In this document: piece after piece, positions 2,693 to 39,940 of the stretch
How positions within the stretch are numbered: the stretch's first letter is position 1
How the letters are laid out: every line of letters begins with the position of its first letter
From: an uncultured Candidatus Saccharibacteria bacterium
Lineage (GTDB): Bacteria > Patescibacteriota > UBA1384 > CAYGGE01
DNA length: 64,000 bases
Direction of reading: 5' to 3'
Assembly: GCA_964349485.1 (NCBI GenBank)
Contig: CAYGGE010000001.1
Coordinates: forward strand, 69,204-133,203
Made by a program: the position numbers and the translations under genes
The notes under the pieces: model-generated
Database searches by the model: none
What the model saw: the letters and a program-made list of their open reading frames with translations, nothing else
What the model was told of the DNA's origin: nothing

Positions 2693-2750
2693 GCTATCCG
2701 AGCGTAGTCACCTATGCTATAATTCAACTACAACATAAGGTGGGGAGACT

Positions 2751-3224: not shown

Positions 3225-3232
3225 GAAGTATC

Positions 3233-3862: not shown

Positions 3863-5673
3863 ACAAGACTAAACAGCCCAAACAAGTTGAGACCCCCAAA
3901 ACCAGCCCGATTACCAGTGCCATGAACGCCATCGCGCCGGCAGCTTTTCTGATGACCGCCGACCATATCCAGCTTAACAACCTGTACGCCAAGACATTAT
4001 TCGTCTATACCTATCCCCACTTCCTCGAGACCAACTGGGTCTATCCACTAATTAATTTAGATATTCCGATGGATATTTCTTTCTTTATCTATCCGATCGA
4101 CAGCAACAGTCTACTCCCCCAGCTTCGCCGGAAATCGACCCAGCTCCATGCCAGTTTTAGTATCGAGCAGGATAAGGGCTTGGTACGTAACCCAGAGCTT
4201 GAGGCCGCGATTACCGATATCGAACAGCTTCGCGACACCTTAGTTCGGGGTGAAGCTCGACTGTTTCACTTAGGATTATACTTCACAATCTATGGCAAAA
4301 CACAGGAAGCGCTCTCGTCGGGCATCAAACAGATTGAGTCGTACTTGAACGGCGCCCTTATTTACACGAAGCAGGCCTTCTTACAGATGGAACAAGGTTT
4401 TAACTCGACCCTACCGATTGGCACCGACGAACTAGCCATCACCCGCAACCTCGACACTGGCTCGCTGTCCACCACCTTCCCCTTTACCTCGGCCTCCTTG
4501 ACATCCAACGAAGGTATCCTCTACGGCATCAATCGACACAATAATTCATTGATACTGTTTGACCGATTTAACCTTGAAAATGCCAATTCGCTGATCCTCG
4601 GTAAGGCTGGAAGCGGTAAAAGTTACTTAGTCAAACTAGAGATCTTACGGACCCTCATGATGGGTACCGACGTGATCGTTATTGACCCTGAGAATGAATA
4701 TCGGGCCTTGGCTGAGACCCTAGGTGGGACATACTTGAATTTTTCGATCAATTCCCAAACCCGCATTAACCCACTCGACTTGCCACCGCCTTACGAGGGT
4801 GAAAGCGGTGAGGATATTGTTCGTACAGCGATCGTGACCGCCCGCAGTCTCATATCGCTCATGGTCAACGGCCTCTCGCCAGAAGAAGACGCGGTGCTCG
4901 ATAAAGTGTTGTTGGAAGTTTATAAACGAAAAGGGATCACCACCGATATCGCCACTCACGGCAATCCACCACCACTACTAGCAGATGTCGTCGCCCTACT
5001 CGGTCAGTCGACGGGCATGCAACAGTTGGCGGTTCGTCTTGAACGCTATACTGAAGGGACGCTGTCTGGTCTCTTTAATCAGCCGACCAATATCAATTTG
5101 AATAACGGCTTTCTGGTCTTCTCAATTCGCGACCTTGAAGAACAGCTTAGACCAATTGGTAGTTACATTATCCTGTCGTTCATCTGGAACACCATCCGCC
5201 ACGAACTACGTAAACGAATGCTGGTCATCGATGAGGCTTGGATCTTGCTTCAGCACGAGGACTCAGCCGCCTACCTTTATTCCTTCGCCAAGAGGGCTAG
5301 AAAATATTACCTTGGCATGACCACGATAAGCCAGGACGTGGAAGACTTCTTAGACTCGAAATATGGCCGATCGATCATCAATAACACATCATTACAGATA
5401 CTACTTAAACAGTCGACCTCGGCGATCGATAAGGTAGCTAACGCCTTCAACTTAACCGAAGGCGAGAAACTGTTACTCCTTGAATCAGATATCGGCGACG
5501 GGCTATTCTTCGCTGGGCAAAACCACGTGGCCATTAAAGTCATCGCTTCAGGAATTGAGGATCAGATGATTACCACCAACCCGCAAGAAATTCTGGCCGA
5601 ACGAGCGATCGCCGAGCAAGCCGCAACGCAAGAAGGTACTCAGCCAGCGCGGCCAACTGCGCCGGCCGCTTAG
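3859..5673 (+). CDS. virB4: VirB4/TrbE/PrgJ-family T4SS ATPase (C-terminal ATPase portion)
   Basis: Walker A LILGKAGSGKSY, VIDPENEY and a Walker B-like MLVIDEAWILL. Size plus the upstream N-terminal fragment totals about 810 aa, typical of VirB4. Confidence 0.8.
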   Translation: MNKTKQPKQVETPKTSPITSAMNAIAPAAFLMTADHIQLNNLYAKTLFVYTYPHFLETNWVYPLINLDIPMDISFFIYPIDSNSLLPQLRRKSTQLHASFSIEQDKGLVRNPELEAAITDIEQLRDTLVRGEARLFHLGLYFTIYGKTQEALSSGIKQIESYLNGALIYTKQAFLQMEQGFNSTLPIGTDELAITRNLDTGSLSTTFPFTSASLTSNEGILYGINRHNNSLILFDRFNLENANSLILGKAGSGKSYLVKLEILRTLMMGTDVIVIDPENEYRALAETLGGTYLNFSINSQTRINPLDLPPPYEGESGEDIVRTAIVTARSLISLMVNGLSPEEDAVLDKVLLEVYKRKGITTDIATHGNPPPLLADVVALLGQSTGMQQLAVRLERYTEGTLSGLFNQPTNINLNNGFLVFSIRDLEEQLRPIGSYIILSFIWNTIRHELRKRMLVIDEAWILLQHEDSAAYLYSFAKRARKYYLGMTTISQDVEDFLDSKYGRSIINNTSLQILLKQSTSAIDKVANAFNLTEGEKLLLLESDIGDGLFFAGQNHVAIKVIASGIEDQMITTNPQEILAERAIAEQAATQEGTQPARPTAPAA

Positions 5674-18853: not shown

Positions 18854-18943
18854 GGAGAGGTCGCATAGTGGCCTAGTGCGATAGTTTCGAAAACTATTGT
18901 ACCCGTAAGGGTACCGTGGGTTCAAATCCCACCCTCTCCGCCA
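18854..18943 (+). tRNA. tRNA-Ser (anticodon CGA) with a long variable arm, including 3' CCA
   Basis: Folded by eye: acceptor GGAGAGG/CCTCTCC, anticodon stem-loop ATAGT-TTCGAAA-ACTAT, long variable arm TGTACCCGTAAGGGTACCG, T-arm GTGGG-TTCAAAT-CCCAC, then GCCA. Confidence 0.85.
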
Positions 18944-19040: not shown

Positions 19041-19058
19041 CAAATCCCACCCTCTCCG
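19041..19058 (+). repeat. 18-bp direct repeat of the tRNA-Ser 3' end (CAAATCCCACCCTCTCCG), about 100 bp downstream of the tRNA
   Basis: Identical to 18923..18940. It lacks the 5' half of a tRNA, so it is a fragment rather than a gene. Confidence 0.7.
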
Positions 19059-20314: not shown

Positions 20315-20376
20315 ATACTACTCCCATCATATGGACTATGAATAATATATTCCAAATCATATTGTATAATAATTAC

Positions 20377-20865
20377 ATGATTAAGGATATCAAGCATGAA
20401 TTAGCAACTTTCGCCGCTGGCTGCTTCTGGGGAGTGGAAGATGCCTTTCGTCGTATCCCTGGAGTGAGTAATGCTATCTCTGGCTATACTGGTGGCCACC
20501 AAGAGAACCCGACCTATGAACAGGTTTGCACGGGCGATACGGGTCACGCCGAAGCGGTCGAAGTGACCTTCGATCCAGAAAAAGTTACCTATGAAGAACT
20601 ACTGGCTAAGTTTTGGTATTTACATAACCCAACGACTCGAGATCGTCAAGGGCCAGATGTCGGGTCACAGTATCGCTCAGCAATTTTTTATCATAGCGAA
20701 GACCAGAGAAAAGCTGCAGAGGTTTCAAAAAAAACTTTGGAAGTCTCGGGAAAATATCCAAATCCAGTAGTCACCGAAATTACCCCGGCTTCAACCTTCT
20801 ACCCGGCCGAAGACTACCACCAACGTTGGACGGAAAAACATGTCGGTTACGCCTGTCACATATAG
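20377..20865 (+). CDS. msrA: Peptide methionine sulfoxide reductase MsrA
   Basis: [47 protein letters not shown] and QYRSAIFYH. The ORF track starts at 20338. ATG at 20377 sits 7 nt after a TATAAT, so the transcript may be leaderless. Confidence 0.9.
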
Positions 20866-21021
20866 GTATAGGAACCCGCATCGTCAGGAGCAGACATGTT
20901 ACAGGTTGGGAGACAGTTTCCTAACCTGTAGTGTTTTAATTGACGCGAATTAGAATATGGAGCGTCAAAATCGTCTCTTGATCAGAAGCCGTTATTGGAG
21001 TGACTTAGAGAACATCTTTTT

Positions 21022-21041
21022 AGTTTAGTATATGCTAAACT
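21022..21041. promoter_or_regulatory. 20-bp palindrome AGTTTAGTATATGCTAAACT about 60 bp upstream of xylA, a candidate operator
   Basis: Perfect 7-bp arms with a 6-bp TATATG spacer, read in the sequence. Confidence 0.4.
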
Positions 21042-21100
21042 TTGCGCAGCCCAAGCCACGGGGCGTTCGTGGTAGTTCTGAAACTGTCAGGAGGACAGAA

Positions 21101-22276
21101 ATGATTCCTTATCAGCCGACACCAGCCGACCGGTTTACGTTCGGCCTCTGGACGTTTGGCAATCCTGGCCGTGATCCCTTTGGGGACGCGGTTCGACCGA
21201 CGCCTAGCATCGACACGATCGAGCGTGCTCTTCCTAAACTGGCTGAGCTTGGGGCCTATGGAGTGAACTTGCACGACAACGATCTGGTGCCGATGGACGC
21301 CACCGCGTATTATCGTGACCAGCTAGTGGGGCGCTTCATGGCCGCACTTGCAATGACTGGACTCAAGGTGCCGATGGCCACTACCAACCTGTTCACGAAC
21401 CCAGTGTTCAAGGACGGGGCTTTCACTAGCAATGATAGGAGAGTGCGGGCATATGCCCTACAAAAGACGATGCAGGCGATTGACCTCGGCGTCGAGCTGG
21501 GGGCAACGATCTACGTCTTCTGGGGCTGTAGAGAAGGAACGGAGGTCGATGTGTCCAAGAACCCGGTCGAAGCACTCGAGTGGTTCCGGGAGTGTCTGGA
21601 CTTCCTGTGTCACTATGTCGATGACCAGGGATATGACCTTCGCTTTGCTCTCGAAGCCAAGCCAAATGAGCCGCGGGGCGACATCTTCTTGCCGACGACG
21701 GGGTCGATGCTCGCCTTCATCCAGACGCTTTCAATACCGAACATGGTTGGGGTCAACCCGGAGGTCGCCCACGAGACGATGGCCGGGTTGAACTTCACTC
21801 ATGCGGTCGCCCAGGCGCTGGAGGCCGAGAAGCTGTTCCACATAGACCTGAACAGCCAGAAGCCGGGTCGTTACGACCAGGACTTTCGGTTCGGCCAGGA
21901 GGACATCAAAGGCGCTTTCTTCCTGGTCAAGTTGCTAGAGGAAAACGGATACGCCGGTATGCGTCACTTCGACTCTCACGCCATGCGGACCGAGGACATG
22001 GATGGAGTCTGGGCGTTTTGTCGTGGCTGCATGCGGACGTATAAGATCCTCCAGGAGAAGGTTCGGCAGTTCGCTGTCAACCCCGAGATCCAGGGTCTGC
22101 TGGCTACGATCCGCGTCGACGACAGCGAGCTCAAGGACATAATGGCGAGCACCTCGCCAAGCTGCGCTGAGAAGCTCCAAAATTGGAGGTTCGATCCGCG
22201 GGCACTCGCCGCTCGAGGGCTCGGCTACGAACAGCTCGACCAACTCGTTACCGAACTCCTCCTCGGCGTTCGTTAA
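21101..22276 (+). CDS. xylA: Xylose isomerase, class I (actinobacterial type, about 391 aa)
   Basis: [66 protein letters not shown] and LFHIDLNSQ are close to Streptomyces/Arthrobacter XylA. Strong RBS AGGAGG before ATG at 21101 (the ORF track starts at 21032). GC is visibly higher than in the flanking genes. Confidence 0.9.
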
Positions 22277-22302
22277 CAGGTAGGTGCCGACCTTAGGCAC
22301 AC

Positions 22303-22334
22303 CAAGAAAAGAACCCCCGCTAACTGATGTAAGC
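22303..22334 (+). terminator. Hairpin terminator after xylA (GAACCCCCGCT-aactgatgta-AGCGGGGGTTC). A second 9-bp hairpin follows at about 22351-22380.
   Basis: Perfect 11-bp stem read in the sequence. It lies in the convergent intergenic region. Confidence 0.6.
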
Positions 22335-22588
22335 GGGGGTTCTACATTTAAGATAGGGGGGGGTCAGTCCCTATCTTAAAATGATCTTGGCCTGAGCGTT
22401 CTTAAAGATCTTACTGAACGGTCATATAAATGTAAGAGGCAATAAGTCACAATTTAATACCTATAAGTTTAAGAGGTTAGACATTTTACAGTTGTTAGCA
22501 CACTAGCCACTCAAAACAATAAAACAGTATACTAGGGAAGGTACCTAATGATTAGCTTTTGTTGATAAATCATTCCCTAAACTAATGC

Positions 22589-23122
22589 TCATTGAATTTC
22601 AGGGTACTGAGTGCGATAGTGATCTTGAATTTCACCTTTTGGATGTTCTATCTCCCAAGACGCTCCGCCTTCACTGGTCTCGATACGTAATGAAACACTT
22701 GCGTCTGGATCGTTAGGGTCAGTCGCATATCGACTGTCGGGTGTGTAGATTGCTAATACGACCCGTTGGATATGTGCACTGTCGAATGGTACCCCAAGCG
22801 AACCGGGACTTGAGCCCTCTGGATCTGACTGAAGCATTCGGATGATAGCCTCTGCCTCTTTTATGGCGGCATCTTTTATCGTATCTGTGATGCGTGGGTC
22901 CACGATCATTGAAGGTGTAAAAGGCTTTACTTCGACACTAGCCACAGTTGCTTTCCGTTCGTGCATCGTATCAACTCTGGCCTGTTGCTCGAGTGCTGCT
23001 CGTACCTTATCTATCCCAAAGCGTATAACGAGTTCGTCAACAGCTTTTCGAAGCTCACTATTTTCTAACTCAGGACGACTTCCTGACATTTCTCCACTTT
23101 GGTTATATGACTGTTCATACAT
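22589..23122 (-). CDS. Hypothetical protein (acidic, no recognisable domain)
   Basis: ORF track 22589..23137. ATG at 23122 is preceded by GGAAGGTGG. Confidence 0.45.
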   Translation of the reverse strand: MYEQSYNQSGEMSGSRPELENSELRKAVDELVIRFGIDKVRAALEQQARVDTMHERKATVASVEVKPFTPSMIVDPRITDTIKDAAIKEAEAIIRMLQSDPEGSSPGSLGVPFDSAHIQRVVLAIYTPDSRYATDPNDPDASVSLRIETSEGGASWEIEHPKGEIQDHYRTQYPEIQ

Positions 23123-23164
23123 AATACCACCTTCCAAAACTCTTATTTGATAAGCGTAATGTGA

Positions 23165-23818
23165 TTAAGAAGACGGAGGGCTAGTCTTTTTGATTGGAGT
23201 TGGTTTAGTAGTTGGACTTTTGGTATTAGTGGGCGAGGGCGTTGGTTTATTGCGGCAGCTTTGGCTCAGCAGCAACATCTGCTGTCTCAACGCCGCCAGG
23301 CTGTCGATGAGCCTGCGCAGTATCAGTTGGTCGTTAGGGTTTTGGACGTTGCCGATACTGGCATTGATACGATTGATTTCGTCATTGATCTGCTGAATCT
23401 GCTTGGTTAGAGCGTCGATCAAGGCTTGGCATTGCTTGTTCGGATCCTTTTTTTGGTCGGTACAACTAGCTAGCGCCGTCTCTAACGAACTTCGTTGATC
23501 GATGAGGTCCTGATAATGCGCGCGAAGCAGAGTCATGTATGTCGGATCGGTGTCTGGCAAATTATCGATGAGATCTTGCTCAGAAGCGATCTCATCGGCT
23601 AGGTTATTGATAGTTACTGAAAGCGAAGCAATCTGATCACGGAGACCTTGGCAGAGATCGGTTGCACCGGCTGGTGTCTTTGTGTTGGCCTGTGGGGAAT
23701 AGCGTGTGATCAGAAAGGCAGCGGTCCCAACAACGAGAGCTAACACGATCAGCCCAATCCAAGTTTTGACGATGAATTGCTTACTCATTTGACATAACCA
23801 TAGCTTTAATCTTATCAA
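23165..23818 (-). CDS. Signal-anchored coiled-coil protein with a Pro/Thr/Lys-rich C-terminus
   Basis: ORF track. N-terminal TM helix (WIGLIVLALVVGTAAFLI), Q/L-rich heptad-like region and a PTPSPTNTKSPTTKPTPIKK tail. Confidence 0.45.
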   Translation of the reverse strand: MIRLKLWLCQMSKQFIVKTWIGLIVLALVVGTAAFLITRYSPQANTKTPAGATDLCQGLRDQIASLSVTINNLADEIASEQDLIDNLPDTDPTYMTLLRAHYQDLIDQRSSLETALASCTDQKKDPNKQCQALIDALTKQIQQINDEINRINASIGNVQNPNDQLILRRLIDSLAALRQQMLLLSQSCRNKPTPSPTNTKSPTTKPTPIKKTSPPSS

Positions 23819-23936
23819 CGGTCAGCTTGATGGTCAATTAAAGTACGTACTTGTTTGAGGGGTGGTTGGGCCGTATGATGAGTTTATAACTATACACATT
23901 ACGGAACTTAGTTCCATCACACTCTGCGGAGGAATT

Positions 23937-24365
23937 GTGACAAAAATTAAGAAAACCGATGCCCAGTGGCGAAGCCAATTGACTGAAGAACAATATCGAA
24001 TTCTACGAAAGAAAGGGACGGAGCCGCCGTTTACCGGAGAGTATTTGTATAACGATGAAAGTGGTGTCTATACCTGCGGGGCATGTGGCTACGAACTTTT
24101 TTCTTCAGACACTAAGTTTGAGTCACACTGCGGTTGGCCGAGTTTTTATGATCCCATGTACCAAGACCATATTGTCTTCACGCCTGACGATGCGCTCGGC
24201 ATGAGCCGGATTGAGGTGACCTGTGCTCGATGTGGCGGACACTTGGGGCATGTGTTTGACGACGCCCCACAGACGCCGACAGGGAAAAGGTTCTGTATCA
24301 ATTCAGCATCATTAGGCTTCAATAAGAAGGATATGAAGGAGGGGAATGTTGAATCTGTTAACTAA
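23937..24365 (+). CDS. msrB: Peptide methionine sulfoxide reductase MsrB
   Basis: CGACGYELF ... HCGWPSF ... RIEVTCARCGGHLGHVFDD (two CxxC pairs). GTG start at 23937 after GGAGGAA. The ORF track starts at 23862. Confidence 0.9.
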   Translation: MTKIKKTDAQWRSQLTEEQYRILRKKGTEPPFTGEYLYNDESGVYTCGACGYELFSSDTKFESHCGWPSFYDPMYQDHIVFTPDDALGMSRIEVTCARCGGHLGHVFDDAPQTPTGKRFCINSASLGFNKKDMKEGNVESVN

Positions 24366-25275
24366 CCTTGGAGTCAGTAAATTATTGCTTATCGCCAGCG
24401 GTGTAGTTGTCGTCACTGGTGTTTCAGCCTTTGGTGTAGCGCGATCGCCTAAGCCGGCCGCGGATTCAATCGTAAGGGTACAGACAACCGCTGTTTCTGT
24501 GGTGCCAAGTAGCAGTACGATTGCGACTGCGTCATCTACCAGTACGGTGAAGCCCTTACCGTCTGTTACCAATTCAGCTATCACAAGTAAAATAGTAGTG
24601 GCAACCAGCCCACCGAGCGTGGCCAAAGAAAATGATCACACACCGCCGTTATTACTCAAAGGAGTGGGCATCAACTTTGATTATTACGATCCGGCGACGG
24701 GTAGAGCGGGCGATGTGGTATTTACCAAAGATAAACTTCAGTTCAATGTTCTCTTGACTGAGTACGGCTTTACGATTCCGGCTGATCAAACCTCGAGCGG
24801 TCAGAGCAAGCGCAATCCGCAACCGACCTGGCAGGTGCCGATGGGCACTAAGGTTCGTTCCATAGTTGATGGTGTTGTGACGAATGTTTCGACCCTATAT
24901 AGCAATGACTATAGTATCATGGTGGCGACAGACCCTAAGAGTAATTGGCAATATGAAACTGAACATGTCATCAATCCGTTAGTTAAGGTTGGAGACAGAG
25001 TGACTGCCGGTCAAGTTATCGCTGAAGTTAGTCCACACAATAAAGATGGTAACGCCGGCTACGGTCTGGTCGAGATTGGTATATTGAAAGGTGGTACCCC
25101 ACCACAACACGTCTGTCCGTTTGCCTATCTTGACCCATCGATCAAAGATGACTTCCAAAACAAACTGCGGGCATTTTACAAATCCTGGGAAGAGTATCGC
25201 GGTGATACTAACTTGTACGACGAGGCATCACAAGCAATTCCTGGTTGTTTGACCCAAGAGGCGATCGATGGTTGA
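24346..25275 (+). CDS. Secreted/anchored protein with a degenerate LytM/M23-like beta-rich domain
   Basis: Strong RBS GAAGGAGGGG. Segment GTKVRSIVDGVVTNV...VGDRVTAGQVIAEV resembles the M23 fold, but the HxxxD and HxH motifs are missing. Confidence 0.4.
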   Translation: MLNLLTNLGVSKLLLIASGVVVVTGVSAFGVARSPKPAADSIVRVQTTAVSVVPSSSTIATASSTSTVKPLPSVTNSAITSKIVVATSPPSVAKENDHTPPLLLKGVGINFDYYDPATGRAGDVVFTKDKLQFNVLLTEYGFTIPADQTSSGQSKRNPQPTWQVPMGTKVRSIVDGVVTNVSTLYSNDYSIMVATDPKSNWQYETEHVINPLVKVGDRVTAGQVIAEVSPHNKDGNAGYGLVEIGILKGGTPPQHVCPFAYLDPSIKDDFQNKLRAFYKSWEEYRGDTNLYDEASQAIPGCLTQEAIDG

Positions 25276-25372
25276 GGATTGAACTGTGAGTGAGGTATAA
25301 ATCGGCTTACTATTCGAGATAGATGCCATTTGTTCGGTTGTGTCAATTGTCCAGTAAGAGTATCATGAACGC

Positions 25373-26032
25373 ATGAAATGGTACAAATGGCTTAGCTTAG
25401 CCAGCATAGTCTTAGTTCTTCTTGCTCTCGGATTGTCTGTTTGGGCCCGTGTTGCCTATGGCAAAAGGCAGTTGGTAAACCACAAACGGGTCACGATTAC
25501 TCTCCCCTTTTCGGTAGACAATGAAGCTAATCGCTTAATTCCGATGGGCGAGACGATCGAACACCCGAACAGTCCGGGAGGTCATCCGGGGCTCGATTTT
25601 GGCTGGGAGCGCTCCGTGCCGCTGATTGCGGTTGGCGACGGCACGATCACCGCTATTACCGACGCTCTGGACTTAGGTGATCCGGTAAAGTATGTTACCC
25701 TTCGAATGGGTGAATACGCCGCGACCTATAAGGAGCTGAGTAGCGTTAATGTAATAAAAGGTCAAAAGGTCAAGCAAGGTGAGTTGATCGGGACCCCTCA
25801 TTGCCTAGATTATGGCGATCACACGGGATGTCAGCTTCATTGGGAATTTAGCTACGCTTCATTTCTGGCTCATTTTTCGGGCGCTCCAGATCGTTTGTGT
25901 CCACTTACTTACTTCGATTCATCGGCTTTAGTGCGGATTACGGCCGTGTGGGATATAGTGCCCGCCAACGATAAGTTCAAAAAGGAATTTCCTCACATTT
26001 GTAGCAACGTATTTTATGAACATAACGAATAG
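25373..26032 (+). CDS. M23-family (LytM-like) peptidase, membrane-anchored
   Basis: HPGLDFG (HxxxD), GDGTITAI, GELIGTPH and QLHWEF (HxH position, first His replaced) in the correct order. Confidence 0.55.
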   Translation: MKWYKWLSLASIVLVLLALGLSVWARVAYGKRQLVNHKRVTITLPFSVDNEANRLIPMGETIEHPNSPGGHPGLDFGWERSVPLIAVGDGTITAITDALDLGDPVKYVTLRMGEYAATYKELSSVNVIKGQKVKQGELIGTPHCLDYGDHTGCQLHWEFSYASFLAHFSGAPDRLCPLTYFDSSALVRITAVWDIVPANDKFKKEFPHICSNVFYEHNE

Positions 26033-26072
26033 GGCTGATTTTGATATTATTTGAACTATAATTAATCGACAG

Positions 26073-27206
26073 TTATTGTTGGTGATTAATTATTCTTTCG
26101 GCATTCTGGTAGGCGTATTTGGCTTGAACCGTCGGGTCTAGTCGACCAATAAACGAACGCATATACTGATTTAAGACGACTGCCACATCGGAATCGACTG
26201 ACCAGGCCGAACTCCAACCACGGTCGGTACCCCACAAAACTTGATCAGGATGACGGGTGATAAAGTCCTTAAATGTTGCCAAGTCAATCTCTAATAGGGG
26301 CTCGGGGTTATTGAAGTGGGCTAAGAACTGCGACTTCGATACTTCTGGCCGTAATAGCCACTCCCCACCGTACAGTTCGTCGACGCCATAGTAAACGTTA
26401 GGGTGACGATTTAATATGGCCTCAATGTCGTCGAGGCCGATTTTATTATCGGGTAAATGATGCACTAATTGATCACCATGCCAAATAAAAGTGATATCGC
26501 GATTAGCGGCGGCCATCGCTTCGAAGGCGGACTGTTGACCTTCGCCCAGATGAAAATAGATAACCATATTATGTTTGCGAACGACCGGGTATATATCAGT
26601 TAGTCGCGGTGAGTTTGGCGATAAAGCTTTGGCGCCATGCACTCGAGCATACAGACCGATCTCGCCATATCCAGCGAATGAGTTAGAAGATTGGTTAAGC
26701 ATGTTGGTTAAGGCGGTCGCGTCAACCGTTGGGAAGCCACCAGGCTTATCGTCGTGTTCTGGTGGCATAATAAAAGGCACAAATTTGTCGGGGAAAGCAG
26801 TGAGAACTCTTTTCACAACGGATATGGATGGGTCAATAATTGGCTCCCAGACTGGAAAGAAAGCAAACACTTGGCGGATATTTCCGGTCGTCATCATACA
26901 GACATAATCATTAATTGTAATGTTTGAACCTAAAACCGGTCGACTATTTTTTGACGTGTTTAAGACTGGCCCATCTGGAAGGGGGGCGATGTGAATGTGA
27001 GTATCAATCATCGGACCAGTGTAGGCGAGGGGATCCAGGTTCGGCACGGTTTTGGTTGTACAGGTTCGTGAGTCAAAACTGTCGTCAATTAATGAGTTTA
27101 TAACAGGCGTTGTGTTGAACAGAGTAGCACTTAGTCCAAACCAAACTAACCCACTTGCGATCAATAACCCGATCAATATTTGGATTAACAGACGATAGCT
27201 GGTCAT
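26073..27206 (-). CDS. Amidohydrolase-family metal-dependent hydrolase (TIM barrel), membrane-anchored
   Basis: MIDTHIHIAP metal-binding motif near the start of the catalytic domain. N-terminal TM helix. Confidence 0.5.
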   Translation of the reverse strand: MTSYRLLIQILIGLLIASGLVWFGLSATLFNTTPVINSLIDDSFDSRTCTTKTVPNLDPLAYTGPMIDTHIHIAPLPDGPVLNTSKNSRPVLGSNITINDYVCMMTTGNIRQVFAFFPVWEPIIDPSISVVKRVLTAFPDKFVPFIMPPEHDDKPGGFPTVDATALTNMLNQSSNSFAGYGEIGLYARVHGAKALSPNSPRLTDIYPVVRKHNMVIYFHLGEGQQSAFEAMAAANRDITFIWHGDQLVHHLPDNKIGLDDIEAILNRHPNVYYGVDELYGGEWLLRPEVSKSQFLAHFNNPEPLLEIDLATFKDFITRHPDQVLWGTDRGWSSAWSVDSDVAVVLNQYMRSFIGRLDPTVQAKYAYQNAERIINHQQ

Positions 27207-27274
27207 AAAAAATTTCTCTTTAAAACAAATAACGATTCTGGTAACGACTGTATATTACTCACTTTTCGGCATAT

Positions 27275-28948
27275 CTAATCTTTAATAAGATGCTGGAGGC
27301 TGTACTGTAGGGAAACGGCAACTTTTTTGCCTGGGTTGAAGATATTATTCGGATCAAATATCGCTTTAGTAGTCGCGAACAGACTGACCATCTCTGGGCC
27401 AAACATGGCGGTTAAGTAAGGAGTACGGATTAAGCCATCATTATGCTCGCCGCTCATGGAACCGCCATACTGAAAGACTAGATCGAAGACTTTTTTTGAT
27501 ACTTCAGGGATAATTGCCGTGATCTTTGTGTCGTGCATATTGAGCAGTGGAATAATATGAAAATTGCCGTCACCGATATGCCCCGCTAATGTGTACTCGA
27601 TGGCGTAGTGGCTCATTATCTCTTTAAGTTTAGGCAAAAATTTTGGTAGCTTTGCTGGCGCGACCGTAATATCGTCAATAAACGGAGCGGCGTGCTTATC
27701 GGGGCTGTGATGTCGCAAGAGATTGAAACTTTCTCGTCTGACCACCCAGTACTTCTTCTCCTCGATCTTCGTCTTGGTAACCAAGGTTTTTTCTGAGTAC
27801 GCCTTAATTGCCGTTTCCGCGACTAAAGCCTGCTTGGTTGCGTCACTAGCTTTATCTGAGGTGAATGAGGCGAGGAGGACTAATTTTGGCATGCCGTGAC
27901 GGAGAAAGAAAAAGGCTTCAGGCAAGAAATTAAGTGCTGTTTTTAAAGGACTCTGCCTGGCAATATGTTTTGACAGCTCTGGTAGATATTTTATAGCCAT
28001 AGTAAGAGTATGGTCATCAAAGCACTCGAAACTCTCTGGTCGATGCTCAAGTACTTTATTGATGATTGTTGCGAGCTTGTCGGTGTCGGAAAGAAATATC
28101 ACTAGTAATCGGCTATGTTTTTTAGGCCTGACGAGCTTTAGTTTCATCTTGGTGATGATGCCTAGAGTGCCTTGTGAGCCGACTAAGAGTTTGGTGAGAT
28201 CGAAGTGTGTTCCGTCCCAGACATTCCACAGATAATAGCCGGCTGAATTTTTTGAGACGGTTGGCTTGGCCTGGCAGATCGGTACGTAGTTTTCGCGAAT
28301 TAGGGCGTACATCTTACGGTAGATGTCGCCTTCGAGTCCAGGGAGTTGAAATTTGGCTGGTAGCTCCGCAACAGTCAGGGGACGAAAAGTGGCTAACGTA
28401 CCATCGGCCAAGACAACCTCCAACTCCTCGACATAGCGCTCTGCCTTGCCGTAGGACAACGATTTTTCCCCTCCCGCATTGTCCGCGATCATGCCACCGA
28501 TCGTGCAGATATCCTTCGAAGAGGTGTAGGCGGGATAGAGGGCATCCTTCTTCTTCGCTGCCCTCTCGAGAGTTTTATACATTACGCCCGGTTGGCAGAC
28601 AACGTGACTGCTGGTAACCGATTCAATCTTGGTAAAATGCTTTTTCATGTCGAGAACGATCGACTCTGTCAACGGTCCACCGCTCATGTCGGTACCGGCA
28701 AGGCGTGGGGTTAGAGAGAGTTTTTCATCTGGATGTTCATTGATGTACTGGATCAATTTTTGAATATCAGTCGTATCTTTTGGGGCGATCACCAAAGAGG
28801 GTCGAACGGTAAAGATGCTGGCATCTCGGCTAGCTTGATCGAGGATCTTAGGAGTATCGTAAACCTCGCCGCGAATCAACTGCTGAAGCGTTTCTTTTTG
28901 CATCGTAAAACCAAGCTCAATGAGCCTGTCCCCTCTCCTTCGCTCCAT
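27275..28948 (-). CDS. FAD-linked oxidase (GlcD/D-lactate dehydrogenase-like; FAD_binding_4 plus FAD-oxidase C-terminal domain)
   Basis: RPSLVIAPKDTTDIQKLIQYINEHP...LSLTPRLAGTDMSGGPL and C-terminal GGSMSGEHNDGLIRTPYL. The track ORF extends to 29038, which would overlap the HD gene by 58 nt. Internal ATGs at 28948 and 28903 are alternative starts. Confidence 0.8.
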   Translation of the reverse strand: MERRRGDRLIELGFTMQKETLQQLIRGEVYDTPKILDQASRDASIFTVRPSLVIAPKDTTDIQKLIQYINEHPDEKLSLTPRLAGTDMSGGPLTESIVLDMKKHFTKIESVTSSHVVCQPGVMYKTLERAAKKKDALYPAYTSSKDICTIGGMIADNAGGEKSLSYGKAERYVEELEVVLADGTLATFRPLTVAELPAKFQLPGLEGDIYRKMYALIRENYVPICQAKPTVSKNSAGYYLWNVWDGTHFDLTKLLVGSQGTLGIITKMKLKLVRPKKHSRLLVIFLSDTDKLATIINKVLEHRPESFECFDDHTLTMAIKYLPELSKHIARQSPLKTALNFLPEAFFFLRHGMPKLVLLASFTSDKASDATKQALVAETAIKAYSEKTLVTKTKIEEKKYWVVRRESFNLLRHHSPDKHAAPFIDDITVAPAKLPKFLPKLKEIMSHYAIEYTLAGHIGDGNFHIIPLLNMHDTKITAIIPEVSKKVFDLVFQYGGSMSGEHNDGLIRTPYLTAMFGPEMVSLFATTKAIFDPNNIFNPGKKVAVSLQYSLQHLIKD

Positions 28949-28980
28949 TGTCTCAAATCGCCCTAGAGCAAGCAAGTCAC

Positions 28981-29574
28981 TTACTTTGACTTCTGGCGAC
29001 TCACCCACCACTCGTCCTCTTTGTCGGCGAACCACCACTCGTCGGAGTTGGTTTCCATGATTTGCTTAGCCAGCTTTTTGGCGGACTCAGTTTTGAGACG
29101 TTTGATCGCTGGTGGGAGCCAAGTTTCGGCTCGGGCATTGCCCGTGTCGACCTGCTCTTTGAGCGAGAGAATCCATTCAAGATTGTCAGCCTCTTTGGCG
29201 ATGATCGATTCTTTAGTTTTACGCTCCTCGTACTCCGCTATGATCGACTTAATTTCCTCGCCATAAGGGAATGAAGCCGCAATATCGTCAACCGCTTTTG
29301 CCTCATGGCTCTCGATATATTTTTGATGAATATAGTTGAGGTCACTGGTTCGGCCTTCAGCTAGATCGTGAAACAGGCACATTTTGATGACTTTTTCAGT
29401 GTTGACATCGCCTTCCATCCAAGCCAAAACTAAGCCACAATAGACAGTTCGATTAATATGTTCAGCCACTGACTGTTCGCCACTACCCAAGAAAAAGAAC
29501 CCGCTACGTGGGGTTTGTGACAGAATGCCAACTTCAAACAGGAAATTGACGAGCGATTTGGAATCATTTTCCAT
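28981..29574 (-). CDS. HD-domain phosphohydrolase (YfbR-like 5'-deoxynucleotidase family)
   Basis: HINRTVYCGLVLAW ... LFHDLAEGRTSDL matches the HD motif. Confidence 0.7.
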   Translation of the reverse strand: MENDSKSLVNFLFEVGILSQTPRSGFFFLGSGEQSVAEHINRTVYCGLVLAWMEGDVNTEKVIKMCLFHDLAEGRTSDLNYIHQKYIESHEAKAVDDIAASFPYGEEIKSIIAEYEERKTKESIIAKEADNLEWILSLKEQVDTGNARAETWLPPAIKRLKTESAKKLAKQIMETNSDEWWFADKEDEWWVSRQKSK

Positions 29575-29771
29575 GATTACTCCAAGGTTCTCACTATACC
29601 AACACAGGCAATTGAGAGCAACTAGACGTTGCTCCTCGGTAGTATATATGGTTTAATGATTACCTCCGGCTTTGGTCGGCGTTCTTTAGTCTTTCTGTTT
29701 GGCATTTCCAGGTTTTTCTCGATGTTCGTTACAAGGCCTGGAGTTGTCCAGGCAGAAAGGGTAGTAAGCCC

Positions 29772-31079
29772 ATGTGGCTTGAACGGGTAAAGCTTTGGTG
29801 GCGTCAAAAGTGTCGACAGGGGACATACGTCCTCGTCGTAGGGTCGTTGTTCGGCGACGAAGCCAAGGGGAAGCTCACTGATCTCCTGGCTAAATACGCC
29901 GACGTGGTGGTCCGGTGGGCCGGTGGTAACAACGCCGGCCACACGATCATTCACGGTGGATTGACCCATAAACTCCACCTCCTTCCGAGTGGTGTGTTGC
30001 ACGAGCACATCACGAACGTGATCGGCTGTGGCACGGTCATTGATCCGGTGGTACTGTGCGATGAGCTCGACGAGCTAGCTAAGCACGGCATCACCCTCGA
30101 TAGCCGTCGCTTGCTCATCAGCCGTCATGCTCACTTGATCCTGCCAACACATCGGCTTGCTGATGCGTTGGGCGATCAACAGCGAATCGGCACGACCGGT
30201 CGAGGGATTGGCAAGGCTTATGAGACCAAGGCCGGTCGCTATGGGATTCGGATGGAGGATTTGCAAAGACCCGACTGGAAGATCGAAGAAATGCTTGGTG
30301 CAGAAGTCCAACGTTTCCATGTGCTCTACCAAGAGCGTCCATCGGACGATCTCGAAGGCGATTTGGTTAAGTGGATGGAAGCAGCTAGGCGGCTAAGACC
30401 GTTCATCGCAGACACCGCAACCTTCCTAAACGACGCTCTGGCGGCCGGGAAGGTAGTCGTCGGTGAAGGCGCCCAGGGTTGGGGGATCGACCTCGATCAT
30501 GGGACGTACCCGTTCGTGACCAGCTCCTCGCCGACCGCCGGCGGGGCCTGCACTGGGACGGGCATCTCGCCTCGGAAAGTCGACCGAGTGATCGCCGTGG
30601 TCAAGGCCTACTCGACGCGAGTCGGGAAGGGGCCATTTCCCACGAAAGTTACCGATGAAGCTGGTAAGTGGATGCTCGAAAAGGGCAAAGAGCGCGGCAC
30701 GACGACCGGTCGGCCGCGGGACTGTGGTTGGGTGGACTTGGTTCTGCTCAAGTACTCGTTGATGATCAGCGGCTGGGACTGGATGTTTCTGACCAAGCTC
30801 GACGTCCTGTCGGGCCTCAAAGAACTCCGGGTCTGCGTCGCCTACCAGCTACCAGATGGCAGCCAAGTGGACCGGCTGGCCGACGTGCCGGATCTCGATG
30901 CGGTAACGCCGGTCTGGGAGACTCTCCCCGGTTGGACTGAGGACATTGGTCATATCCGCTCATTCTCGGACTTGCCGGAGGCAGCTCAGAACTATGTTGA
31001 GTATCTGGAGTGCGCGCTCGGGGTAGACGCCAAGATGATCTCGGTCGGGCCGGACCGAGATCAGACAATCTACCGCTAA
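29772..31079 (+). CDS. purA: Adenylosuccinate synthetase
   Basis: GDEAKGKLTDLLA (P-loop), VVRWAGGNNAGHTI, GTTGRGIG and TKLDVL. GC is visibly elevated. Confidence 0.9.
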   Translation: MWLERVKLWWRQKCRQGTYVLVVGSLFGDEAKGKLTDLLAKYADVVVRWAGGNNAGHTIIHGGLTHKLHLLPSGVLHEHITNVIGCGTVIDPVVLCDELDELAKHGITLDSRRLLISRHAHLILPTHRLADALGDQQRIGTTGRGIGKAYETKAGRYGIRMEDLQRPDWKIEEMLGAEVQRFHVLYQERPSDDLEGDLVKWMEAARRLRPFIADTATFLNDALAAGKVVVGEGAQGWGIDLDHGTYPFVTSSSPTAGGACTGTGISPRKVDRVIAVVKAYSTRVGKGPFPTKVTDEAGKWMLEKGKERGTTTGRPRDCGWVDLVLLKYSLMISGWDWMFLTKLDVLSGLKELRVCVAYQLPDGSQVDRLADVPDLDAVTPVWETLPGWTEDIGHIRSFSDLPEAAQNYVEYLECALGVDAKMISVGPDRDQTIYR

Positions 31080-31176
31080 GGCGGGCGGAACAGCTCAATG
31101 CAAATGTAACAGGAGGTTAAAACGGGCCGGGGCGCAGTGTGCGCTCCGGCTTTCCGTTTTCTGGTATACTGAAACT

Positions 31177-31869
31177 ATGGATATTTTTCGCGCTTTTGTT
31201 TTAGCTTTGTTTCTCCTTTTCCCGGCTCGTCTTTTGGCGCAAACAGTTGATTACTGCGTACGATTAACCAACGTTGCCGACTATCCGGATTCGGTATTTG
31301 TTTCTAGCTTACCAACCGACGTGGGAAGTGGTTTTGGAATCTTTACTGGCAATAACTGCTTGCCAGCTGCTCCTGAATTTAACCAGACAATCTATGCTAT
31401 CCCCCAGTCTGATTTCGACGAGTCACAACTTTCTGGTGATACCACAAGCTACTTGGTTGAAAACCCGGCAGTGGCCAGAGGTATACTTTCAATTAGTGCA
31501 CCGACAGATCCTGCCATTAGTCGAGTAGTCGCCAATTATTCGATCGATACCCTAACGCCAACAGCTCTCACCACAAAACTTATTGACCAAAAGTCATTTG
31601 ACGCAAATGGATCGATTATTATATCGAGCCCAATCCCATCGCCGCGACCCGCTGGCTCAAATGGATCCCAAACTGCCTCAACTAAGGGGCTCAAGTGGTT
31701 TCAGGAAAATTGGACTGTCGCCTTGCCGTTGGCGGGGAGTATTATCATCGGCCTGATCATTGTCTTAAACATCGCCAAAAAGCGGCCGACAGAAGCAGTC
31801 GTTCAGGAACCGACCGATGAAGTAGAAGTCCAGTCACCGCCACCTACTGAGCAACCACCGAGCGTATAG
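31177..31869 (+). CDS. Secreted protein with a C-terminal TM anchor, unknown function
   Basis: Signal peptide MDIFRAFVLALFLLFPARLLAQ and C-terminal hydrophobic segment AGSIIIGLIIVLNIAKKR. Confidence 0.45.
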   Translation: MDIFRAFVLALFLLFPARLLAQTVDYCVRLTNVADYPDSVFVSSLPTDVGSGFGIFTGNNCLPAAPEFNQTIYAIPQSDFDESQLSGDTTSYLVENPAVARGILSISAPTDPAISRVVANYSIDTLTPTALTTKLIDQKSFDANGSIIISSPIPSPRPAGSNGSQTASTKGLKWFQENWTVALPLAGSIIIGLIIVLNIAKKRPTEAVVQEPTDEVEVQSPPPTEQPPSV

Positions 31870-31895
31870 TCATAAGAGAGATAAGGGAGCCTCAA

Positions 31896-32177
31896 ATGAG
31901 TGAAGAACGGATCCTTGCTTTGGAAAATGAGATTAAATCCATCAAGGAGCGCAACCTAAAGGTTGAGGCCGATAAAGCATGGGAGACTAGTCTGGCCCGA
32001 ATCGCGATGATTTGTATCATTACTTACTTCATCGCGGTTTGGGTGATGGCAGTAATCGGGGTTACGAACTACTGGCTCTCAGCCTTAATCCCGACGATTG
32101 GCTTTTACCTCTCAGTTCAGTCGTTGCCCGTGGTCAAACGGTGGTGGGTGAAGCATTACGTGACGAGTAAGGAATGA
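31896..32177 (+). CDS. Small two-TM membrane protein
   Basis: 93 aa ORF with RBS AAGGGAG and two hydrophobic helices. Confidence 0.4.
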   Translation: MSEERILALENEIKSIKERNLKVEADKAWETSLARIAMICIITYFIAVWVMAVIGVTNYWLSALIPTIGFYLSVQSLPVVKRWWVKHYVTSKE

Positions 32178-32212
32178 ATAATTCTCGATGAAATAATATT
32201 AATCAAATAGTC

Positions 32213-32737
32213 GTGGCCTCTAACAACCCGGTAAAAATTGAAGCGGCACGGCAAGCTTTTTCTAGGGTGTGGCCTGAGACAGAGTGGCAATTGGAGGGTT
32301 TGACGGTATGGTCGGGCGTGCCTGACCAGCCCATGTCAGATGAGGAAACTCTGATCGGTGCCACCAATCGTGCCAATGCTGTAAAACTAGCCAGACCACT
32401 CGCCGCCTATTGGGTTGGAATTGAGGGCGGGCTTCAGGATCGGGGCGATGAACTGGAGGCCTTTGCTTGGGCAGTTGTCATCGGAGCTGATCGAGTGGGT
32501 AAGGGAAAGACAGGCAGTATATTTCTGCCACCCGAGGCCGCCAAACTTATTCGAGATGGCAACGAGCTAGCGACGGCAACCGACATTATCTTTAAAACAA
32601 CCAACGCCCGTCACTCCATCGGAGCCGTGGGGGCGTTGACCCGAGGACACATCGATCGCACTACTTTCAACGCGCAAGCAGTCTTGCTGGCCTTATTGCC
32701 ATTTATGAATCCAGAACTCTACAAAGAAGAGACTTAA
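32213..32737 (+). CDS. Inosine/xanthosine triphosphatase (YjjX/NTPase_I-T family)
   Basis: N-terminus ASNNPVKIEAARQAF resembles YjjX (TTNPAKI..). Size is 174 aa. Confidence 0.6.
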   Translation: MASNNPVKIEAARQAFSRVWPETEWQLEGLTVWSGVPDQPMSDEETLIGATNRANAVKLARPLAAYWVGIEGGLQDRGDELEAFAWAVVIGADRVGKGKTGSIFLPPEAAKLIRDGNELATATDIIFKTTNARHSIGAVGALTRGHIDRTTFNAQAVLLALLPFMNPELYKEET

Positions 32738-39871: not shown

Positions 39872-39940
39872 TCCTCCTTAAAGGATGTAGGACATAGGTT
39901 TTCTTAAGTATACAATACCTACACAATACTACAAGTAGGG

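What the first reader, a model, noticed from the sequence alone, without database searches (positions are those of the whole stretch)
21101..22276. Lone actinobacterial-type class I xylose isomerase in a GC-rich island, probably acquired from the host lineage
The protein matches the short (about 390 aa) class I XylA of Streptomyces, Arthrobacter and Actinoplanes nearly motif for motif ([64 protein letters not shown]). Its GC content is visibly about 10 points higher than the flanking genes. It lacks xylB, xylR and transporter partners, and it interrupts an msrA ... msrB neighbourhood. Saccharibacteria are obligate epibionts of Actinobacteria, so horizontal capture from the host clade is a plausible route.
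Basis: partly seen in the sequence, partly recalled or inferred. Interest (0 to 1): 0.65.

Follow-up and report, generated by a model that had tools for sequence, protein, structure and literature searches.

The report
Borrowed xylose isomerase in a CPR bacterium
An ultra-small (CPR/Patescibacteria) bacterium carries one intact, ordinary-looking xylose isomerase gene that it almost certainly picked up from an unrelated, GC-richer bacterium, but neither the proposed recipient (Saccharibacteria) nor the proposed donor (Actinobacteria) is borne out.

Summary
Window 21101-22276 (+) encodes a full-length 391-aa class I xylose isomerase: NCBIfam TIGR02631 scores 558 bits against a cutoff of 447, and all catalytic and metal-binding residues are present. 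The gene has its own AGGAGG ribosome-binding site and a hairpin after the stop codon.

Its GC is 58.2% (GC3 72%), against 45.5% in the flanking genes and 49.4% for the whole window (mean gene GC3 52%). The rise is confined to the coding sequence. No xylulokinase (FGGY) or xylR gene lies anywhere in the 64 kb. Four other contigs, each from a different sample or run, reproduce the msrA-xylA junction at 100% identity, so this is not an assembly chimera.

- **Horizontal acquisition** is well supported.
- **The recipient** is a CPR bacterium, but its nearest named relatives are Berkelbacteria and "Patescibacteria group" (Andersenbacteria for a neighbouring peptidase). No Saccharibacteria appear among them.
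- **The donor** is unresolved. The best hit is only 73% identical, in a GC-rich environmental clade labelled Armatimonadota or Actinomycetota. Deinococcus is 63-67% identical, Thermus 59%, and Streptomyces and its relatives 54-59%. The placement has 10% bootstrap support.

This is a new member of a known family, of modest interest.

The parts
21101..22276 (+). xylA: class I (short-type) D-xylose/glucose isomerase, 391 aa, intact
   Evidence: TIGR02631 scores 557.8 bits against a cutoff of 447. It aligns end to end with solved structures 1bxb, 4hhl and others. Catalytic and metal-binding residues H58, D61, E185, K187, E221, H224, D249, D259, D261 and D291 are all kept. GC is 0.582 and GC3 0.719.
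21086..21091 (+). Shine-Dalgarno sequence AGGAGG, 9 nt before the ATG at 21101
   Evidence: Read directly from the sequence. It is one of the strongest ribosome-binding sites among the 58 gene starts checked in the window.
22310..22343 (+). GC-rich hairpin (15-nt arms, 4-nt loop) starting 34 nt after the xylA stop codon; terminator-like, with a weak T-tract
   Evidence: Inverted repeat I3, 93% complementary; sequence shown.
20896..20934 (+). Terminator-like stem-loop after msrA, separating msrA from xylA
20338..20865 (+). msrA (peptide-methionine (S)-S-oxide reductase), upstream neighbour with host-like composition
   Evidence: TIGR00401 scores 211.8 bits. GC is 0.453 and GC3 0.432.
22589..23137 (-). 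Hypothetical ORF convergent with xylA; no known family
   Evidence: No Pfam or NCBIfam hit. No relative was found in JGI metagenome contigs. GC3 is 0.366.
23165..23818 (-). Hypothetical ORF; no known family
   Evidence: No Pfam hit. It was called as a gene on the independent contig L001.
23937..24365 (+). msrB (peptide-methionine (R)-S-oxide reductase), downstream neighbour that overlaps the start of an M23 peptidase gene
   Evidence: TIGR00357 scores 175.9 bits. The gene call gives 142 aa.

Best explanation
A CPR/Patescibacteria bacterium, related to Berkelbacteria- and Andersenbacteria-labelled genomes, acquired a single coding sequence for a class I xylose isomerase. The donor was a non-CPR bacterium with higher GC, from a lineage not yet sampled closely; its phylum is unresolved.

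The gene now sits as its own transcription unit in a poorly conserved accessory stretch downstream of tRNA-Ser, between msrA and msrB. It has a host-type AT-rich upstream region, a strong ribosome-binding site and a terminator-like hairpin.

The enzyme has every residue needed for the two-metal hydride-shift isomerisation of D-xylose to D-xylulose and, more slowly, D-glucose to D-fructose.
- **Shown:** family membership, an intact active site, foreign composition, the lack of partner genes within 64 kb, and real linkage to the host genome.
- **Inferred:** the gene is expressed and active, and it supplies xylulose (or fructose) to a kinase encoded elsewhere in the genome. From there the sugar would enter the non-oxidative pentose-phosphate shunt that CPR bacteria commonly use.
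For: **Family and active site.**

**Foreign composition.**
- GC3 is 0.72 against a window gene mean of 0.52, and the step is confined to the CDS.
- In the 14 homologue loci checked, xylA GC follows the GC of its own locus, for example Poribacteria 0.486 vs 0.475 and Actinomycetes 0.683 vs 0.709.
- DNA similarity to homologues starts exactly at the start codon.

**Non-CPR relatives.**
- The best hit in 5.8 billion proteins is 73% identical.
- The five loci fetched from the nearest clade have GC of 0.65-0.68, and one lies on a 1.6-Mb contig.
- None of the 80 best GTDB loci is titled as a Patescibacteria/CPR genome.

**The recipient is CPR.**. Locus L091, whose PNPase is 84% identical, is syntenic with window 45-61 kb.

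**Not a chimera.** Contigs L001, L173, L174 and L175, each from a different sample or run, are 100% identical to the window (L001 apart from its first base) and all cover the msrA-xylA junction. L001 also covers the downstream junction.

**Not unusually fast-evolving.** Identity to outgroups equals that of the nearest clade.

**Background from the literature.**
- Patchy metabolic genes in CPR bacteria are shaped by lateral transfer, hexokinase is rare, and the non-oxidative pentose-phosphate shunt is common (PMC7304191).
- Sugar isomerases and kinases were not detected in five rumen Patescibacteria MAGs (PMC9177762).
Against: - No closely related genome with an 'empty' msrA-msrB site was found, so the insertion event itself is not demonstrated.
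- No integrase, transposase or flanking repeat marks the gene.
- The donor cannot be named: the sister relationship has 10% bootstrap support, and in only 76 of 200 replicates did the sister group consist solely of the nearest clade.
- Only 64 kb of the genome (contig length 211,632 bp) was visible, so a xylulokinase elsewhere is neither shown nor excluded.
- The enzyme has a unique Gly-to-Cys change in the WGGREG motif, at a position that is Gly in all 204 other sequences. Its effect on activity is unknown.
Confidence: 0.72

Rival explanations
1. One reading: a Saccharibacteria epibiont captured xylA from its actinobacterial host.
For: - The enzyme belongs to class I, the class historically defined on Streptomyces, Actinoplanes and Arthrobacter enzymes.
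- One member of the nearest clade (P0011, 70.8% identical) is labelled as an Actinomycetota MAG.
- Donor-like GC is high, as it is in many Actinobacteria.
Against: - No Saccharibacteria appear among the 120 best PNPase hits; the named hits are Berkelbacteria and 'Patescibacteria group'.
- Cultured or otherwise labelled Actinobacteria are 54-67% identical. That is no closer than Deinococcus, Chloroflexota, Poribacteria or Planctomycetales.
- The nearest clade also carries two Armatimonadota labels. Locus L087 holds an N_methyl/SBP_bac_10 gene, which to my knowledge is typical of Planctomycetota and Armatimonadota.
- Even the best hit is only 73% identical, so no sampled organism is a recent donor.
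Confidence: 0.06
2. The gene was acquired but is an orphan. It is a recent, effectively neutral capture with no downstream pathway in this reduced genome, and it is destined for loss.
For: - There is no FGGY kinase, regulator or adjacent transporter within 64 kb.
- Composition is not ameliorated.
- The gene sits in a variable accessory region that is not conserved in relatives.
- Residue 143 carries a unique Gly-to-Cys change at an otherwise invariant position.
- CPR genomes often lack sugar kinases (PMC7304191; PMC9177762).
Against: - The ORF is intact and deviates at only 3 of 140 highly conserved columns.
- It has a strong ribosome-binding site and its own terminator-like hairpin.
- Its GC3 of 0.72 lies between that of the nearest clade (0.83-0.91) and the host (0.52). 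This could reflect partial amelioration, meaning some residence time under selection.
- The sequence is identical in five assemblies.
- In the nearest clade xylA is also unlinked to xylB, so lack of linkage alone says little.
Confidence: 0.17
3. The gene is an old, vertically inherited CPR gene whose high GC3 reflects gene-specific codon bias, for example from high expression.
For: - The best identity is only 73%, and the query is a solitary branch.
- Two or three other genes in the window show the same GC3 excess.
Against: - None of the taxon-labelled hits or fetched loci among the 120 best proteins is CPR, and none of the 80 best GTDB loci is titled as CPR.
- The relatives' loci that were examined contain no xylA.
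- The window's housekeeping genes (dnaA, dnaN, PNPase, yidC) do not share the bias.
- The branch is not lengthened relative to outgroups.
Confidence: 0.04
4. The gene is an assembly or binning artefact: a fragment of another organism joined into a CPR contig.
For: - The composition jump is abrupt.
- Contigs from three other assemblies end inside xylA.
Against: - Host-type sequence continues on both sides of a single CDS.
- Four independent contigs, from ERZ27247820, ERZ27247828, ERZ27247830 and ERR3094295, share the msrA-xylA junction at 100% identity. L001 runs from msrA through xylA for a further 10 kb.
- The contig break points differ between assemblies (20356, 21823, 21930, 21995), so there is no common seam.
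Confidence: 0.01

Closest known systems
Class I xylose (glucose) isomerase, NCBIfam TIGR02631 'xylA_Arthro'; solved examples are Thermus thermophilus 1BXB and Streptomyces sp. SK 4HHL
   Same: - Length of about 390 aa, aligned end to end.
- All catalytic and two-metal-site residues are present.
- The motifs [24 protein letters not shown] and LFHIDLN are present.
- It is 59.5% identical to the Thermus enzyme and 58.8% to the Streptomyces enzyme.
   Different: - It is encoded in a CPR genome.
- It has Cys in place of the invariant second Gly of WGGREG.
- There is no xylB nearby, whereas an FGGY kinase adjoins xylA in 8 of 15 GTDB loci checked.
Uncultured GC-rich clade of class I XylA with 75 members in the tree. 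The only labelled members are Armatimonadota (P0073, P0082) and an Actinomycetota MAG (P0011).
   Same: - These are the closest sequences, at 70-73% identity.
- xylA is not linked to xylB there either.
   Different: - Those genes have GC3 of 0.83-0.91, in loci of 65-68% GC.
- In four of the four loci with downstream sequence they are followed by a DUF218 gene. The window has no DUF218.
- The query lies outside the clade, and the link has low support.
Megaplasmid-borne class I xylA of Deinococcus and Thermus
   Same: The family is the same. These cases show that the gene travels on large, mostly non-mobilizable replicons. Identity is 63-67% for Deinococcus and 59% for Thermus.
   Different: The window shows no plasmid context: the gene lies about 4 kb from the dnaA/rnpA/yidC origin region. 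Annotated xylB accompanies xylA in at least one Deinococcus plasmid.
Patchy, laterally transferred central-carbon genes in CPR bacteria (Jaffe et al. 2020, PMC7304191)
   Same: A single metabolic enzyme that is sporadically present, compositionally and phylogenetically foreign, and set in a reduced genome.
   Different: Neither 'xylose' nor 'xylulo-' occurs anywhere in that paper's main text. I also found no paper in the searchable library that reports XylA in CPR bacteria.

Membership tests
Class I xylose isomerase (TIGR02631, EC 5.3.1.5) | Full-length match to the family model above its curated cutoff | tested here: met
   557.8 bits against a cutoff of 447, covering residues 4-388 of the protein and model positions 1-382 of 382.
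Class I xylose isomerase (TIGR02631, EC 5.3.1.5) | Short architecture (about 390 aa) without the N-terminal extension of class II enzymes (about 440 aa) | tested here: met
   The protein is 391 aa. Class II models TIGR02630 and NF003998 score about 113 bits against cutoffs of 533 and 459. Class II structures match only at E = 1e-26 or weaker.
Class I xylose isomerase (TIGR02631, EC 5.3.1.5) | Catalytic His/Asp pair, catalytic Lys, and the seven ligands of the two divalent metals (S. rubiginosus numbering: H54, D57, K183, E181, E217, H220, D245, D255, D257, D287) | tested here: met
   All ten residues are present, at query positions 58, 61, 187, 185, 221, 224, 249, 259, 261 and 291. The columns are invariant across the 205 sequences; at one of them (D291) a single other sequence has Asn. 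Which residues are catalytic comes from my own knowledge of the family.
Class I xylose isomerase (TIGR02631, EC 5.3.1.5) | Conservation of the remaining invariant positions | tested here: inconclusive
   137 of 140 columns that are at least 95% conserved are kept. The exception that matters is Cys143, where all 204 other sequences have Gly (WGGREG). The other two deviations are conservative: I40 and L75.
Class I xylose isomerase (TIGR02631, EC 5.3.1.5) | Xylose/glucose isomerase activity | not testable with these tools
   This requires expressing the protein and assaying it.
Canonical xyl operon or regulon (xylA with xylB, regulator and transporter) | Xylulokinase (FGGY family) adjacent or nearby | tested here: not met
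   tblastn and an HMM built from eight xylA-linked FGGY kinases found nothing in any frame of the 64 kb (best E = 0.04). The rest of the genome was not available.
Canonical xyl operon or regulon (xylA with xylB, regulator and transporter) | XylR/ROK or another sugar regulator, and a xylose transporter next to xylA | tested here: not met
   The neighbours are msrA, two hypothetical ORFs and msrB. The only solute-binding proteins (SBP_bac_1/8) lie 20 kb away at 42449-45182, with no recognisable permease or ATPase beside them.
Horizontally acquired gene | Composition deviating from that of the resident genome | tested here: met
   GC is 12.7 points above the flanking genes, the GC3 z-score is 2.6, and the gene falls in the top 2.1% of same-length windows.
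Horizontally acquired gene | Closest relatives lie in unrelated taxa and not in the recipient's lineage | tested here: met
   The labelled relatives and fetched loci are non-CPR. The relatives' loci that were examined lack xylA.
Horizontally acquired gene | An empty site in a close relative, or mobility signatures at the borders | tested here: inconclusive
   No syntenic msrA...msrB locus from a close relative was found. No flanking repeats or integrase are present. The only such feature is an 18-nt duplicate of the tRNA-Ser 3' end, 2 kb upstream.
Saccharibacteria recipient / actinobacterial donor scenario | The recipient genome belongs to Saccharibacteria | tested here: not met
   The best named PNPase hits are Berkelbacteria (five) and 'Patescibacteria group' (three). 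No Saccharibacteria appear in the top 120. Class-level placement was not determined formally.
Saccharibacteria recipient / actinobacterial donor scenario | XylA nests within an actinobacterial clade | tested here: not met
   Streptomyces and Thermus split from the remaining 203 sequences at 97% bootstrap. The query's sister group is unresolved, with 10% support and mixed Armatimonadota and Actinomycetota labels. Streptomycetales enzymes are 54-59% identical.

The most novel reading that the evidence does not exclude
A CPR bacterium outside Saccharibacteria has recruited a stand-alone, laterally acquired class I xylose/glucose isomerase as a new entry point for free sugars. Xylose would become xylulose, or glucose would become fructose, and feed its pentose-phosphate shunt. 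The phosphorylation step would be done by a kinase encoded elsewhere, possibly a non-canonical one. The enzyme's properties may also be altered by the unique Gly143Cys change in the WGGREG loop. This would be an undescribed route of carbon acquisition in a group usually reported to lack sugar isomerases and kinases.
Probability: 0.2. Interest if true: 0.45.

Novelty: new member of a known kind. Interest (0 to 1): 0.25.

Why it matters
CPR/Patescibacteria genomes are usually described as lacking the isomerases and kinases that bring free sugars into metabolism (PMC9177762, PMC7304191). An intact, apparently expressible XylA shows that such genes do reach these genomes by lateral transfer. It would be a concrete candidate for testing whether some CPR bacteria use pentoses directly.

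The result also carries a caution. 'Class I' does not mean 'actinobacterial', because the family is spread across many phyla and has a poorly resolved, transfer-riddled tree. An attractive epibiont-steals-from-host story should therefore not be inferred from family resemblance alone. Beyond that, this is an ordinary enzyme in an unusual host, not a new mechanism.

Tried and rejected
**Empty-site test.**
- I looked for close relatives with an uninterrupted msrA-msrB pair. M23 peptidase homologues led to loci L082-L086, which have no msrA/msrB synteny.
- The hypothetical ORF at 22589-23137 has no relative in JGI contigs.
- The msrA scan returned only loci at 66% identity or less. Every locus in which msrB was also found had 40-65% GC and came from an unrelated organism.

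**Naming the host.**
- Three cluster look-ups returned no source names.
- L084 (an Andersenbacteria-labelled MAG) and L091 (PNPase 84% identical) come from contigs of identical length, 49,836 bp. The fetched parts do not overlap, so I could not establish whether they are the same contig.

**Extending the window.** The protein at the window's right edge is not on record, so no further flank was obtained to search for xylB.

**Vectors.**
- No XylA relative was found in IMG/VR viral contigs.
- Plasmid hits are Deinococcus and Thermus megaplasmids and large Streptomycetales replicons only.

**DUF218.** I looked for a remnant of the DUF218 gene that follows xylA in the nearest clade. None is present in the window.

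**Literature.** Searches combining XylA with Patescibacteria, Saccharibacteria or CPR gave no paper that describes such a gene. The run accession ERR3094295 is not mentioned in the library.

**Rfam.** Only tRNA-Ser was found in the window, and no rRNA that could be used for taxonomy.
Full report
**1. What is there**

The ORF spans 21032..22276 on the + strand. Homologues start at M-x-x-YQPTP, which corresponds to the internal ATG at 21101. Several things support that start. It is preceded by AGGAGG at 21086-21091. It is the start called on an independent ENA contig. It is also the exact point where nucleotide similarity to homologous genes begins.

The protein matches NCBIfam TIGR02631 (xylA_Arthro, an equivalog model) at 557.8 bits against a cutoff of 447, over the whole model. 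The class II xylose isomerase models reach only about 113 bits against cutoffs of 459-533. Pfam reports the xylose isomerase-like TIM barrel, PF01261.

Against the PDB it aligns end to end with class I enzymes:

| Source of solved structure | Score (bits) |
|---|---|
| Thermus 1BXB / 1BXC | 491 / 471 |
| Streptomyces | 449-467 |
| Next groups down (depositor names give only 'D-xylose isomerase'; from memory, Arthrobacter then Actinoplanes entries) | 404-412, then 392-398 |

In a 205-sequence alignment, all ten residues that form the catalytic His/Asp pair, the catalytic Lys and the two-metal site are present. Only 3 of 140 highly conserved columns deviate. One is notable: Cys143, where all 204 other sequences have Gly, so WGGREG reads WGCREG. 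That base is identical in five assemblies, so it is not an assembly error.

A GC-rich 15-bp-stem hairpin lies at 22310-22343, after the stop codon. A terminator-like stem-loop follows msrA at 20896-20934. The gene therefore looks like a separate transcription unit.

**2. Composition**

xylA has GC 0.582 and GC3 0.719. The 58 genes of the window average 0.497 and 0.519, giving z = 2.3 and 2.6. The neighbouring genes together are 0.455 GC, and the two flanking intergenic regions are 0.447 and 0.394. A 150-nt profile shows GC rising at about 21025-21100 and falling at about 22300, so the step coincides with the CDS.

Only 2.1% of 1176-nt windows reach this GC, and they fall in three places: 75-2811, xylA itself, and purA at 29.7-31.2 kb. 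The 'about 10 points higher' observation is correct, but xylA is one of several such outliers.

In the 14 homologue loci checked, xylA GC follows the GC of its own locus. Poribacteria show 0.486 vs 0.475, Anaerolineae 0.577 vs 0.575, and Actinomycetes 0.683 vs 0.709. The mismatch here is therefore meaningful.

**3. Is it really part of this genome?**

Yes. ENA contig k141_1253983 (L001, sample ERZ27247830) equals window 20356-32276 apart from its first base. Three further contigs are 100% identical to the window and contain msrA followed 236 bp later by xylA:
- an 80-kb contig from ERZ27247820 (L173),
- a Logan contig from ERR3094295 (L174),
- a contig from ERZ27247828 (L175).

Host-type sequence lies on both sides of the gene, with dnaA, dnaN, recF, rpmH, rnpA, yidD and yidC about 2-8 kb upstream. 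A chimera or binning error is very unlikely.

**4. 'Lone' status**

Pfam scans of every large ORF in the 64 kb found no FGGY kinase, no ROK/XylR-type regulator and no transporter beside xylA. I then took eight FGGY kinases that adjoin xylA in GTDB loci and searched the window with them, using tblastn and an HMM. Nothing was found in any frame; the best E-value was 0.04.

Calibration matters here. An FGGY kinase adjoins xylA in 8 of 15 GTDB loci inspected. In the clade closest to the query, however, xylA is never next to one. In the four loci of that clade that have downstream sequence (L087, L088, L089, L172), it is followed instead by a DUF218 gene. Lack of linkage is thus normal for this branch of the family. 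Whether the genome has a xylulokinase elsewhere could not be tested.

**5. Who is the recipient?**

The window's PNPase has 16 unnamed relatives at 68-86% identity. After those, at 60-62%, come hits named Berkelbacteria (five) and 'Patescibacteria group' (three). No Saccharibacteria name appears among the best 120. The M23 peptidase next to msrB gives named hits to Andersenbacteria, Berkelbacteria, Levybacteria and Curtissbacteria at about 60%. Locus L091, whose PNPase is 84% identical, shares gene content with window 45-61 kb: VIT1, VanW, DUF2207, PNPase, HSP20 and an NTP-transferase gene.

The genome is CPR/Patescibacteria. The Saccharibacteria assignment is not supported, and the class remains undetermined.

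**6. Who is the donor?**

In the 5.8-billion-protein collection the exact protein is recorded on one contig, and the next best hit is 73% identical. In the GTDB species representatives the best 80 loci are 60-68% identical. They come from Poribacteria, Planctomycetales, many Anaerolineae and other Chloroflexota, Chthonomonadaceae, Acidobacteriota, Gemmatimonadota and Deinococcota, with only three actinobacterial MAGs.

In PLSDB, Deinococcus megaplasmids are 63-67% identical, Thermus 59%, and Kitasatospora, Streptomyces, Embleya and Nonomuraea 54-58%.

I built a neighbour-joining tree of 205 sequences with 100 bootstraps. Streptomyces plus Thermus separate from the remaining 203 sequences at 97%. 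The query is a solitary branch beside a 75-member clade of uncultured sequences, with 10% support. The only labels in that clade are one Actinomycetota MAG and two Armatimonadota MAGs. In 200 further replicates the sister group consisted solely of that clade 76 times.

Members of that clade sit in loci of 65-68% GC, with xylA GC3 of 0.83-0.91. One lies on a 1.6-Mb contig that also carries an N_methyl/SBP_bac_10 gene. The query is not rate-accelerated: its identity to the outgroups equals that of the clade.

Taken together, the donor lineage is not closely sampled and its phylum is unresolved. Nothing singles out Actinobacteria.

**7. The msrA...msrB setting**

msrA and msrB are 3 kb apart here. 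Between them lie xylA and two minus-strand hypothetical ORFs with no known family. In 11 unrelated metagenome loci msrB lies about 100-200 bp from msrA, or overlaps it, so an ancestral pair split by insertions is plausible. I could not find a close relative that preserves the site. No repeats or mobility genes flank xylA. 'Interrupts' therefore remains an inference.

**8. Mechanism and role**

The following comes from established knowledge of the family. Class I xylose isomerases are homotetrameric TIM-barrel enzymes. They open the sugar ring with the help of the His/Asp pair, then move a hydride between C2 and C1 with the aid of two divalent cations (Mg2+, Mn2+ or Co2+). They interconvert D-xylose and D-xylulose and, less efficiently, D-glucose and D-fructose. 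All the required residues are present, so activity is likely.

The physiological role is inferred rather than shown. The enzyme would feed xylulose (or fructose) to a kinase encoded elsewhere, and from there into the non-oxidative pentose-phosphate shunt. CPR bacteria commonly use that shunt, while generally lacking hexokinase and PFK (PMC7304191). The alternative is that the gene is a pathway-less recent capture. I rate that at about 0.17.

**9. Comparison and novelty**

This is a bona fide member of a very well known enzyme family. Its arrival by lateral transfer fits the documented patchiness of CPR metabolism. Neither 'xylose' nor 'xylulo-' occurs in that survey's main text. A rumen MAG study that scored xylose isomerase reported no key sugar isomerase or kinase hits in its five Patescibacteria MAGs. 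I found no paper that describes XylA in CPR bacteria. The finding is therefore a new member of a known kind, in an unusual host.

**10. Verdict**

It is a class I XylA, a one-gene GC-rich island, lone within 64 kb, and horizontally acquired. The Saccharibacteria recipient and the actinobacterial donor are not supported.
- Interest is 0.25.

Noticed in passing
window 29772-31079 (+): purA (adenylosuccinate synthetase, Pfam 515 bits) is a second single-gene GC island, with GC 0.589 and GC3 0.693. Like XylA, its exact protein is recorded from NCBI and ENA but not from Logan assemblies, unlike the other eight window proteins looked up in that call. It may be another lateral acquisition.
   Followed up: partly
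window 75-2811 (ORFs 153-803, 1032-1841, 1924-2655, +): This is the highest-GC stretch of the window, with GC 0.57-0.61 and GC3 0.64-0.74. Its three ORFs have only weak, sub-threshold WD40/beta-propeller-like Pfam hits. It lies just upstream of a T4SS-like cluster of PrgI and VirB4/TraG genes at 2751-5673.
   Followed up: no
window 18854-18943 and 19041-19058: The last 18 nt of tRNA-Ser(CGA), CAAATCCCACCCTCTCCG, are repeated exactly 118 nt downstream (0.04 matches expected by chance). This looks like an att-type scar of a past integration at the tRNA. No integrase is present. The accessory region that holds xylA begins just after it.
   Followed up: partly
window 21527-21529 (XylA residue 143): The codon encodes Cys where all 204 other class I XylA sequences in the alignment have Gly, so WGGREG reads WGCREG. 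The base is the same in five assemblies. The functional consequence is unknown.
   Followed up: partly
L087 8001-10125, L088 8001-9988, L089 7650-9673, L172 375-2465: In the XylA clade closest to the query, xylA is consistently followed by a DUF218 (PF02698) gene rather than xylB. This is a conserved pairing whose meaning I do not know. The window has no DUF218.
   Followed up: partly
window 21823, 21930, 21995 (ends of L175, L174, L173) and 20356 (start of L001): Contigs from three other assemblies of this same organism end inside xylA, and a fourth starts in msrA. The break points differ, so there is no shared seam. The clustering could still reflect a coverage dip or graph branching at the foreign gene.
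   Followed up: partly
window 60558-61115 (+): The VIT1-family (iron/manganese transporter) gene is a milder GC3 outlier, at 0.651 (z = 1.7). A VIT1 gene is also present in the related locus L091.
   Followed up: no
window 42449-45182 (-), 39434-42452 (-): Two tandem paralogous extracellular solute-binding proteins (SBP_bac_1/8) have no recognisable ABC permease or ATPase beside them. They sit next to genes with T4SS_pilin domains. If a sugar uptake system serves XylA, this is the only candidate in the window.
   Followed up: no
The other carries the PNPase that is 84% identical to the window's. The fetched parts do not overlap, and their GC differs (0.44 vs 0.50), so I could not establish whether they are the same contig.
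   Followed up: partly
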